From: a virus
Lineage: Duplodnaviria > Caudoviricetes
Length of the DNA: 64,000 nucleotides
Virus record (IMG/VR): IMGVR_UViG_3300035208_008180
Strand: one strand, 5' to 3'
Made by a program: the position numbers and the translations under genes. Below the pieces are notes generated by a model. It was not told where the DNA came from. It worked only from the letters and a program-made list of their open reading frames with translations, and did not search any database. Positions 18,362-41,866 of this stretch are shown here, piece after piece (positions within the stretch are counted from its first letter, which is position 1; the number at the start of each line of letters is the position of its first letter).

Positions 18362-18572
18362 TGTAAAAAAAGTCTATCTGCCCCTTGTTCTTGCAACCAT
18401 CGAGTCACCACCAAATGAAACACTCGGTGTATTTGCTCTGAAGTTAGTGGCTCCCCAGGTTTTTCATAATTAAAAAAACCTGCTTCCTTTAATTTGGCGA
18501 ACTCCAATTTTTCCAACAAAGATTTGGCGTCTTTGTCTTCAATGAGAATTACTTTCATCATTTCCTCCTAAG

Positions 18573-18649
18573 TCAGCGGGGCAGGATTCGAACACTGCGA
18601 CCTTCAGCTTGTTTATGGCTGATGCTCTGGCCAACTGAGCTACCCGCCG
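18573..18649 (-). tRNA. tRNA-like gene with 9-nt anticodon loop (undetermined or pseudo)
   Basis: CGGCGGG..CCCGCTG-A; canonical D-arm; TCAGC-CATAAACAA-GCTGA; bulged T-stem. Confidence 0.7.
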
Positions 18650-40488: not shown

Positions 40489-40565
40489 GTATTTGAATGC
40501 TGTGGGTCGTGTGGGCGTGGCATTGCTAGGCAACGGCGTTTCCTCGGAACACCACAGCATTCAAG

Positions 40566-40644
40566 AGTCGGCAGGCGGAATCGAACCACTTAACATCTGA
40601 TTTGCAATCAGACCCCCAGCCTTCGGAGATTAGTTTCTGCCGAC
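40566..40644 (-). tRNA. tRNA-Cys(GCA), atypical acceptor-D linker
   Basis: GTCGGCAG..CTGCCGAC-T; TCTGA-TTGCAAA-TCAGA; about 8 extra nt before D-arm. Confidence 0.8.
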
Positions 40645-40651
40645 AATTCAG

Positions 40652-40728
40652 TGGAGCTAGAGGGAGTCGCACCCTCAGTTACCAACGTACCCATTGTAGG
40701 TTTTACGTTAGACTCGCTTTGTAGCCCC
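40652..40728 (-). ncRNA. mini tmRNA-like RNA (tRNA-like domain only, 77 nt)
   Basis: GGGGCTA..TAGCTCC-A with G3.U70; no D-stem; helix CTAACGTA/TACGTTGG closed by a 14-nt loop; T-arm GAGGG-TGCGACT-CCCTC. Confidence 0.72.
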
Positions 40729-40956
40729 TTATCTTTTTGGACCTTGCCAATCATCCCTGTATTTATATGTAAATTCAGCATCAATTGGCGTGTTCAATCC
40801 TTCCTCTCGCAACATTTCCTCAAGAGCATCAGCCACTTCATCATAAACATCACAACGCTCTTGTTCTACGGCCCAAGTCCATGTGCTGCCGGTAGGCGTA
40901 TGACTTGCTTTTTCCCTTAATTGAGCAATATATGCTCTAATCTTTTCCGACTTCAT
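40729..40956 (-). CDS. hypothetical protein
   Basis: 75-aa ORF inside array B. Confidence 0.5.
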   Translation of the reverse strand: MKSEKIRAYIAQLREKASHTPTGSTWTWAVEQERCDVYDEVADALEEMLREEGLNTPIDAEFTYKYRDDWQGPKR

Positions 40957-41673: not shown

Positions 41674-41781
41674 AAAATTTGGTAAATATTTCGGTGTTCC
41701 ACAGCTTAAACTGCCGAGGTTAGAGGCTGTCCATCCTCACCGAGGTTATCGGCCACCGTATCGCCAACTTGGGACATTTAG

Positions 41782-41866
41782 CAGGGGCAGAAGGAATTGA
41801 ACCTCCGAGTGCTTTCGCATGCAGCTTCAAAGACTGCCGGGGTCTGCCAACAACCCCAATACCCCC
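41782..41866 (-). tRNA. atypical tRNA with TTG (Gln) anticodon, 6-bp D-stem and variable arm
   Basis: GGGGGTA..TGCCCCT-G; GGGGTT/GACCCC; GCAGT-CTTTGAA-GCTGC; TGC-GAAA-GCA; GGAGG-TTCAATT-CCTTC. Confidence 0.78.

What the first reader, a model, noticed from the sequence alone, without database searches (positions are those of the whole stretch)
40652..40728. 77-nt tmRNA-like RNA with no mRNA domain
Seen: GGGGCTA/TAGCTCC-A acceptor with G3.U70, an unpaired D region, an 8-bp helix in place of the anticodon arm closed by 14 nt, and a T-arm. Known: this matches the tRNA-like domain of tmRNA (alanylated, SmpB-bound); some mitochondrial tmRNAs lack the tag region. Inference: it may be an SmpB/EF-Tu decoy that blocks host trans-translation, or a tag-less ribosome rescue RNA. 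It lies under attenuator B, so it would be induced when ribosomes stall.
Basis: partly seen in the sequence, partly recalled or inferred. Interest (0 to 1): 0.8.

Follow-up and report, generated by a model that had tools for sequence, protein, structure and literature searches.

The report
Divergent phage mini-tmRNA (tag-less) gene
A giant phage carries, among its tRNA genes, a conserved 77-base RNA that is a stripped-down relative of the bacterial ribosome-rescue RNA (tmRNA): it keeps the alanine-accepting end and has no coding part, a kind of phage RNA already known from mycobacteriophage DS6A.

Summary
Window 40652-40728 (minus strand) encodes a 77-nt RNA. It has a perfect 7-bp acceptor stem (G3:U70, A73), a T arm, no D stem, and one long hairpin where the anticodon arm would be.

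It is a real gene. An orthologue is 76/77 identical, as conserved as the neighbouring tRNA-Cys, while the flanking protein genes are 85-91% identical. Across relatives, 15 of 20 base pairs covary and G3:U70 never changes.

Typical members pass Rfam's tmRNA threshold with the central ~300 positions missing. The published DS6A "TLD only" tmRNA is a member. A model built only from other members scores the window RNA 46.5 bits; the best ordinary tRNA scores 34.

This scan has already reported the same kind on other DNA (83 notes). It is therefore a new, divergent member of a known kind.

- **Departures from type:** it lacks the tmRNA D-loop/neck signature, and the phage also encodes a full tmRNA but no SmpB.
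- **Mechanism (inferred only):** most likely an alanine-charged competitor in trans-translation. Tag-less rescue or an SmpB-independent role remain open.

The parts
40652..40728 (-). Whole 77-nt mini-tmRNA (TLD-only) gene. CCA is not encoded.
   Evidence: CM hits: R2 53.4 bits and R3 46.5 bits. 76/77 identical in L009.
40722..40728 (-). Acceptor stem, 5' strand (RNA positions 1-7), with G3.
   Evidence: 7/7 pairs. G3:U70 is present in 10/10 distinct relatives, and 5 of the 7 acceptor pairs covary.
40712..40721 (-). Unpaired D-region (positions 8-17). It has AG where the family and tmRNA have GG, and no UUCGAC signature.
   Evidence: CM alignment. GG is present in 88/88 other members. The phage's own tmRNA also has AG in its D loop and G at T-loop position 55.
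40706..40711 (-). P2a-like stem, 5' strand (positions 18-23).
   Evidence: All 6 pairs of this helix show double changes across relatives. The single difference from L009 turns a U-G pair into a C-G pair.
40688..40705 (-). 18-nt cap (positions 24-41): the UAAAR motif, a small CC-N6-GG hairpin, then 3 nt.
   Evidence: The motif is shared with the syntenic relative L010, the metagenome members, 88 distinct viral-contig members and DS6A, which has G in place of the first U.
40682..40687 (-). P2a-like stem, 3' strand (positions 42-47).
40677..40681 (-). Linker before the T arm (positions 48-52), UAACU. Typical members have G-G-A-C here.
40660..40676 (-). T arm (positions 53-69): 5-bp stem and a 7-nt loop, UGCGACU, with G at position 55.
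   Evidence: 4 of the 5 pairs covary.
40652..40659 (-). Acceptor stem, 3' strand with U70, plus discriminator A73.
40729..40956 (-). Context: upstream 75-aa ORF (P0001). Its stop codon abuts position 1 of the RNA.
   Evidence: Homologues lie upstream of the RNA in L009 and L010.
40565..40644 (-). Context: tRNA-Cys(GCA), 7 nt downstream on the same strand.

Best explanation
**Shown.** This is a functional RNA gene. It is a divergent member of the phage family of TLD-only (CDS-less) mini-tmRNAs, which includes the DS6A 'TLD only' tmRNA.

**Inferred.**
- It is co-transcribed with the surrounding tRNA genes and cut out by RNase P and 3' processing like a tRNA.
- It then receives CCA and is charged with alanine by the host AlaRS through G3:U70 and A73.
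- Because it has neither an anticodon nor a tag reading frame, it cannot decode or tag.
- The most likely role is a competitor in the trans-translation pathway. It would occupy factors that tmRNA needs (SmpB, EF-Tu, AlaRS, vacant A sites), so that fewer proteins made during infection receive the host degradation tag.

**My odds.** Family membership and functionality about 0.85. Competitor or decoy of trans-translation about 0.4.
For: **Conservation**
- The element is 98.7% identical to its L009 orthologue. tRNA-Cys is also 98.7%, while the flanking protein genes are 90.7% and 85.1%.
- The only change converts a U-G pair to C-G.

**Covariation**
- 98.5% of cells are paired, and 15/20 pairs carry double changes.
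- No shuffled control (0/500) and no slid control reached the observed values.
- G3:U70 is present in 10/10 distinct sequences.

**Family**
- Pattern scans gave 10/10 tRNA-shaped hits in metagenomes and more than 119 viral contigs.
- Features not in the pattern are universal in the 88 distinct viral-contig sequences parsed with a full 7-bp acceptor stem: GGG at the 5' end, hence G3:U70, and GG in the D-loop.
- The tmRNA-type UUCGAC/GGAC neck is the family consensus but is not universal.

**Link to tmRNA**
- Rfam tmRNA scores typical members 72, 67, 72.9 and 52.1 bits against a threshold of 47, with about 303 central positions deleted.
- DS6A (JN698994.1:28478-28557) scores 43.2 bits on Rfam tmRNA and 62.9 bits on my model R3, and it has the same cap.

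**Independent model test**
- R3 was trained on 90 viral-contig members, none from the window's lineage.
- It scores the window RNA 46.5 bits (E 5e-7 genome-wide). The best true tRNA scores 34.1.

**Function by precedent**
- A TLD-only molecule inhibits endogenous tmRNA in E. coli, perhaps by titrating SmpB (PMC4131195 and PMC11915505, citing Mao et al. 2009).

**Charging**
- G3:U70 with A73 is the established AlaRS identity set (textbook knowledge).

**Not a recent copy**
- It is not a recent duplicate of the phage's tRNA-Ala(UGC) or of its tmRNA.
Against: - No expression, charging or binding data exist for this RNA.
- The window copy lacks the D-loop GG and the UUCGAC/GGAC neck shared by tmRNA and typical members. 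That region contacts SmpB in tmRNA (from memory of the TLD-SmpB structures), so SmpB binding is doubtful.
- It does not reach Rfam's tmRNA threshold. The orthologue scores 18 bits.
- The phage encodes a full-length tmRNA (tag ANDYVALAA) and no SmpB. A pure SmpB sink would therefore also hurt the phage's own tmRNA.
- The same co-occurrence holds for L031, L037 and probably L079's record.
- The syntenic relative L010 has a canonical D arm and scores as a tRNA (47.4 bits). This sub-lineage may work in tRNA geometry without SmpB.
- The body evolves faster than true tRNAs over longer distances: 71% identity to L010, against 94-96% for tRNA-Trp.
Confidence: 0.5

Rival explanations
1. **Tag-less ribosome rescue RNA.** The charged RNA, with SmpB, enters vacant A sites of non-stop ribosomes and accepts the nascent chain, adding one alanine. 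With no tag frame, the chain is later released by drop-off plus Pth, or by an ArfB-like factor. Ribosomes are freed without marking phage proteins for proteolysis.
For: - It has the same anatomy as the CDS-less mitochondrial and plastid tmRNAs, which are retained together with SmpB and are thought to help with incomplete mRNAs (PMC11915505).
- Acceptor identity and the T arm are strictly kept.
- It sits in an operon proposed to respond to slow translation (note e1-5710335; position checked).
Against: - No release mechanism is evident. In-frame stop codons after the cap's RCC occur in only 39/88 members, so there is no conserved mini-frame.
- The reported effect of a TLD-only RNA in E. coli is inhibition, not rescue.
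- The SmpB-contact neck is missing in this copy.
- The phage already has a full tmRNA.
Confidence: 0.2
2. **SmpB-independent tRNA mimic.** In huge phages that carry their own tmRNA, the mini-tmRNA has become tRNA-shaped. It now works through its conserved cap, which sits about where an anticodon loop would be. Possible roles are an alanyl-RNA that probes or blocks ribosomal A sites, a decoy for a tRNA-targeting host defence, or a ligand for an unknown phage or host protein.
For: - Neck-less, more tRNA-like members lie in tRNA arrays of huge phages that also encode a full tmRNA: the window's contig, the L021/L031 type, L037 and L079.
- Four phage records with neck-bearing minis show no full tmRNA, and two of those genomes are complete.
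- L010 has a canonical D arm, a 4-5-nt variable loop and a normal T loop. Its UAAAR falls at anticodon-loop positions 33-37.
- The cap is kept while the rest of the body is remodelled.
Against: - The sample is small and not independent.
- L079's record is classed as a provirus, so its tmRNA may belong to the host.
- Cap invariance is partly forced by my search patterns.
- No partner gene is conserved next to the RNA.
- No antisense target for the cap exists in the phage contig.
Confidence: 0.25
3. **Decaying relic.** It is a remnant of a tRNA-Ala or of a tmRNA gene and has no function.
For: - The D arm or D-loop signature is lost, and the T loop is non-standard with G55.
- Scores with Rfam tRNA and tmRNA models are low.
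- Divergence from L010 is fast.
Against: - All 18-20 stem pairs are intact. G3:U70 and A73 are kept.
- It is 98.7% identical to L009, where neighbouring coding DNA is 85-91% identical.
- Helices are maintained by compensatory changes across ten distinct sequences.
- G55 with AG in the D loop also occurs in the phage's own full tmRNA, so this is a house style, not damage.
Confidence: 0.04
4. **Protein-coding sequence or chance hairpin.** The stretch would be the C-terminal extension of the upstream small ORF, as a gene caller annotated it in L009.
For: In L009 the called gene P0004 (96 aa) runs through the element.
Against: - In the window the ORF stops exactly before position 1. In L010 the ORF ends about ten bases into the element.
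- The frame is not conserved.
- Substitution patterns are RNA-like, that is compensatory.
Confidence: 0.01

Closest known systems
'TLD only' (CDS-less) tmRNA of mycobacteriophage DS6A (tmRNA Website; Mao et al. 2009, as cited in PMC4131195 and PMC11915505)
   Same: - Phage-encoded and about 80 nt.
- G3:U70 acceptor with A73, and a T arm.
- One short helix in place of everything between P2a's two strands, and no tag frame.
- The same cap layout: AAAR, a CC-N6-GG hairpin, then 2-3 nt.
- Hit by the same covariance models.
   Different: - DS6A keeps the tmRNA D-loop (GG, UCGAC) and nearly reaches Rfam's tmRNA threshold (43.2 bits). The window RNA has AG, no such signature and G55 in the T loop.
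- DS6A is a 60-kb phage with no tRNA array. The window RNA sits in a tRNA operon of a 340-kb phage that also has a full tmRNA.
Mitochondrial (jakobid, oomycete; Rfam RF02544) and plastid CDS-less tmRNAs
   Same: A tmRNA reduced to its tRNA-like domain with no tag reading frame (PMC11915505).
   Different: - They are organellar, co-occur with an imported SmpB and are presumed to aid rescue.
- No sequence relationship was tested beyond the Rfam scan, which gave no RF02544 hit.
Standard bacterial or phage tmRNA (Rfam RF00023), for example this phage's own at C200:132589-132933
   Same: - Alanine identity, a T arm and no anticodon.
- This phage's tmRNA shares the unusual D-loop AG plus T-loop G55.
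   Different: The standard tmRNA has 4 pseudoknots and a tag ORF over about 345 nt. The element has none of these.
tRNA-Ala (Rfam RF00005)
   Same: - Acceptor stem with G3:U70 and A73; T arm.
- Overall length.
- Location in a tRNA array.
   Different: - No D arm and no 7-nt anticodon loop or NGC anticodon.
- Rfam scores it 17.8 bits, below the 29-bit threshold, and ARAGORN is silent.
- It is unrelated in stem sequences to the phage's own tRNA-Ala(UGC).

Membership tests
Phage TLD-only (CDS-less) mini-tmRNA, DS6A type | 7-bp acceptor stem with G3:U70 and discriminator A73 | tested here: met
   Read directly from the sequence. Invariant in relatives.
Phage TLD-only (CDS-less) mini-tmRNA, DS6A type | T arm (5 bp, 7-nt loop) directly abutting the acceptor 3' strand | tested here: met
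   The loop is UGCGACU, a G55 variant.
Phage TLD-only (CDS-less) mini-tmRNA, DS6A type | One short helix (P2a-like) with a small cap in place of the pseudoknots and mRNA-like domain; no conserved tag frame | tested here: met
   Structure and covariation. In-frame stops occur in only 39/88 members.
Phage TLD-only (CDS-less) mini-tmRNA, DS6A type | Cap motif UAAAR, CC-N6-GG hairpin, 2-4 nt | tested here: met
   Caveat: most members were found with a pattern that demands this motif.
Phage TLD-only (CDS-less) mini-tmRNA, DS6A type | Significant score against a covariance model built from other members only | tested here: met
   R3 scores it 46.5 bits (E 5e-7 in the 6.2-Mb assembly). True tRNAs score at most 34.1.
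Phage TLD-only (CDS-less) mini-tmRNA, DS6A type | tmRNA-type D-loop (GG, then UUCGAC) and GGAC neck before the T arm | tested here: not met
   The window RNA has AG, then CGAGU, and UAACU. GG is present in 88/88 other members. Related huge-phage members also lack the neck.
Phage TLD-only (CDS-less) mini-tmRNA, DS6A type | Alanylation; SmpB and EF-Tu binding; inhibition of trans-translation | not testable with these tools
   Known only by precedent for a DS6A-like molecule (PMC4131195, PMC11915505).
Standard tmRNA (Rfam RF00023) | Score at or above the gathering threshold (47 bits); pseudoknots and a tag ORF | tested here: not met
   No hit in the window. The orthologue scores 18 bits. ARAGORN -m finds nothing.
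tRNA / tRNA-Ala (Rfam RF00005) | Cloverleaf with D arm and a 7-nt anticodon loop; score at or above 29 bits | tested here: not met
   17.8 bits. ARAGORN makes no call except a forced mitochondrial pseudo-call.

The most novel reading that the evidence does not exclude
In huge phages that encode their own full tmRNA, the mini-tmRNA may have shed its SmpB-contact neck and become tRNA-shaped. It would then act without SmpB. Its rigid, elongated arm presents the conserved UAAAR cap where an anticodon would sit. That would make an alanyl-RNA able to enter only codon-free A sites: an all-RNA stand-in for tmRNA-SmpB, or a ribosome-directed weapon.
Probability: 0.12. Interest if true: 0.8.

Novelty: new member of a known kind. 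Interest (0 to 1): 0.4.

Why it matters
Tag-less mini-tmRNAs appear to be a common phage tool aimed at the host's ribosome-rescue and protein-tagging system, yet they go unannotated. The literature held here names only the DS6A example.

This copy adds three points:
- **Spread.** The family reaches into the tRNA operons of giant phages.
- **Co-existence.** It can sit in the same genome as a phage-encoded full tmRNA, which argues against a simple SmpB sponge in those phages.
- **Shared cap.** A short cap motif is shared from DS6A to rumen megaphages and has no assigned role.

There is also an annotation trap. ARAGORN calls some members tRNA-Phe(AAA), and gene callers run ORFs through them.

Tried and rejected
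**Searches that found nothing useful**
- Exact 25-nt T-arm/acceptor pattern in viral contigs: no hit.
- Flanking proteins P0001 and the 216-aa ORF in viral contigs: no relatives.
- blastn of the region against isolated phages: only tRNA-Trp matches.
- First loose viral pattern: only chance coding hits, because its T-loop part was too strict.
- Genome-contig scan: one chance hit, which is not a member.
- blastn of typical members against isolated phages: only DS6A itself, plus the 3' ends of ordinary or permuted tmRNAs in Kumao, cr10_1 and Tunturi_5. These are not minis.
- Final viral scan meant to sample caps without bias: I mis-specified the spacing, so its zero hits mean nothing.
- Corrected pattern over 400 genomes of the host phylum: one hit, a tmRNA 3' end at a contig edge. 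Minis were not found in those genomes.

**Ideas rejected**
- The cap as a mini tag ORF: stops are not conserved.
- The cap hexaloop as a specific motif, a 16S-like 9-mer or an anticodon ACA: the hexamer varies freely in the wider family.
- An antisense target for the cap in the phage: none found.
- ARAGORN's alternative 'tRNA-Phe(AAA) with long variable arm' fold: not supported by covariation.
- A BHB-type or other intron in the anticodon loop: the loop is too short for that motif, and there is no mature anticodon consistent with Ala.
- A conserved neighbouring protein: none found.

**Not obtained**
- Mao et al. 2009 is not held in the library.

Full report
**Setting.** The window is G000:C200:32001-96000. 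C200 is a 340,072-bp contig of 40% G+C inside a 64% G+C assembly. It carries 65 tRNA genes and its own tmRNA (C200:132589-132933, tag ANDYVALAA), so it is a huge-phage genome binned with a bacterium. All 32 tRNA genes in the window are on the minus strand. The element lies between a 75-aa ORF, whose stop codon abuts it, and tRNA-Cys, 7 nt downstream.

**The observation.** On the minus strand, 40652-40728 reads as a 77-nt RNA:
- a perfect 7-bp acceptor stem with G3:U70, and discriminator A;
- about ten unpaired bases in place of a D arm;
- a long hairpin;
- a T arm next to the acceptor.

ARAGORN does not call it. Rfam gives only 17.8 bits for tRNA and nothing for tmRNA. The fold alone is only moderately better than shuffles (z -2.67). 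The case therefore rests on relatives.

**Relatives by synteny.**
- Homologues of the two upstream small proteins led to L009 (ENA) and L010 (JGI).
- In L009 the element is 76/77 identical, and the one change turns a U-G pair into C-G. tRNA-Cys is equally conserved (98.7%), while the two protein genes are 90.7% and 85.1% identical.
- In L010 the homologous RNA is 84 nt. It has a canonical D arm, a normal T loop and different stem sequences. It keeps G3:U70, A73 and a 15-nt loop motif shared with the window.

**Relatives by pattern.**
- That motif plus a generic T loop found ten metagenome contigs. All ten hits were tRNA-shaped RNAs with G3:U70 inside phage tRNA arrays.
- A covariance-model alignment of ten distinct sequences shows 98.5% pairing, double changes in 15 of 20 pairs and an invariant G3:U70. 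This is far above the shuffled and slid controls.
- Those gave 88 distinct RNAs of 76-83 nt that parsed with a full 7-bp acceptor stem. All start GGG, hence G3:U70, and all have GG in the D-region. Neither feature was in the pattern.
- The consensus of these RNAs also carries the tmRNA hallmarks, a UUCGAC D-loop and GGAC before the T arm.

**Link to tmRNA and to the literature.**
- Rfam's tmRNA model scores typical members above its threshold (72, 67, 72.9, 52.1 bits), with the ~303 central positions replaced by 10-13 nt.
- Hudson, Lau and Williams list 'Mycobacterium phage DS6A (TLD only)'. They state that a similar molecule strongly inhibits tmRNA, perhaps by titrating SmpB (PMC4131195).
- Nawrocki, Petrov and Williams repeat this and place it beside the CDS-less organellar tmRNAs (PMC11915505).
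- I located the DS6A gene at JN698994.1:28478-28557. It has the same cap layout and scores 62.9 bits with my family model.
- Model R3 was built from 90 viral-contig members and none from the window's lineage. It scores the window RNA 46.5 bits (E 5e-7 over the whole assembly), against at most 34.1 for any true tRNA.
- The element is therefore a member of this family, and there is one copy in the phage.
- After reaching this conclusion I found that the scan holds 83 earlier notes on phage mini-tmRNAs with the same DS6A precedent.

**How this copy differs.**
- It lacks the D-loop GG (it has AG) and the UUCGAC/GGAC neck. Its T loop has G at position 55.
- The phage's own full tmRNA shows the same AG plus G55 combination. 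This looks like a lineage-specific form of the D-loop/T-loop contact rather than damage; that reading is inference.
- The contig has no smpB. The only copy is on the bacterial contig C206.
- Huge-phage members that lack the neck co-occur with a full tmRNA: this contig, L031, L037 and L079's record, which is classed as a provirus.
- Four phage records with neck-bearing minis show no full tmRNA, and two of those genomes are complete.
- This sample is small and not independent. It does suggest that the tRNA-array forms are not simple SmpB sponges.
- L010's version even scores as a tRNA in Rfam (47.4 bits), while L020, which has the window's exact cap, scores as tmRNA (48.3 bits). The family therefore forms a continuum.

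**The cap.**
- The six central bases vary and usually form a third pair with a tetraloop (57/88). The window's particular hexamer therefore has no special meaning.
- What recurs is UAAAR on the 5' side and GG followed by A-rich bases on the 3' side.
- Most of that constancy was imposed by my patterns. The unbiased cases are the window lineage and L010 (found by synteny), DS6A (GAAAA) and L152 (UAAGG).
- There is no conserved reading frame (stops in 39/88) and no antisense target in the phage.
- The cap's role is unexplained.

**Expression.**
- A near-consensus promoter lies at 44091-44064, and the hairpins of the reported attenuator lie at 43784-43720, all on the minus strand.
- No terminator-like site is predicted from there down to the element.
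- Co-transcription with the tRNA block is therefore plausible but not shown.

**Verdict.** It is a new and divergent member of a known, under-annotated phage RNA family. The mechanism remains inferred: most likely competition within trans-translation. Tag-less rescue and an SmpB-independent role are live alternatives.

Noticed in passing
window 40489-40564 (minus strand): The 76-nt spacer between tRNA-Cys and tRNA-Trp folds into one long, very stable hairpin (-29.9 kcal/mol, z -5.56). It is 95.6% conserved in L009. It may be a processing element or a separate small RNA.
   Followed up: partly
window 18572-18649 (minus strand): ARAGORN calls a 78-nt tRNA-Phe with anticodon AAA. The anticodon loop is oversized, about 9 nt. 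It is not a member of the mini-tmRNA family.
   Followed up: partly
C200:22657-22807 (minus strand), about 9.2 kb before the window start: A second alanine-type acceptor RNA of 151 nt, with G3:U70, A73 and a T arm, has a structured interior. It is not hit by the mini-tmRNA model R3 at E <= 0.01. Together with the full tmRNA, the phage may therefore carry three Ala-acceptor non-tRNA genes.
   Followed up: partly
L021, L022, L024, L025, L029-L031 (for example L031:5442-5527); L010:1560-1644: ARAGORN annotates family members in rumen huge phages as 86-nt 'tRNA-Phe(aaa)', and annotates L010 as 'tRNA-?(aa)'. The covariation does not support that fold. This is a likely source of false tRNA-Phe(AAA) calls in phage genomes.
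   Followed up: yes
L009:383-673: The gene caller extended the homologue of the upstream small ORF (P0004, 96 aa) straight through the RNA gene. In the window the ORF stops just before the RNA.
   Followed up: yes
window 40565-40644 and 41781-41866 (minus strand): The neighbouring tRNA-Cys (80 nt, anticodon at position 40) and one tRNA-Gln (86 nt) are unusually long. Rfam scores them poorly: 15.5 bits for a partial match and 30.2 bits.
   Followed up: no
L163 (MT774382.1, crAss-like phage cr10_1) and L164 (PP885688.1, Tunturiibacter phage Tunturi_5, 157.6-158.7 kb): In cr10_1 a tmRNA-type T arm and acceptor 3' end lies about 60-90 nt into the annotated 386-nt tmRNA, which suggests a permuted form. 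Tunturi_5 has a similar end that is not annotated.
   Followed up: partly
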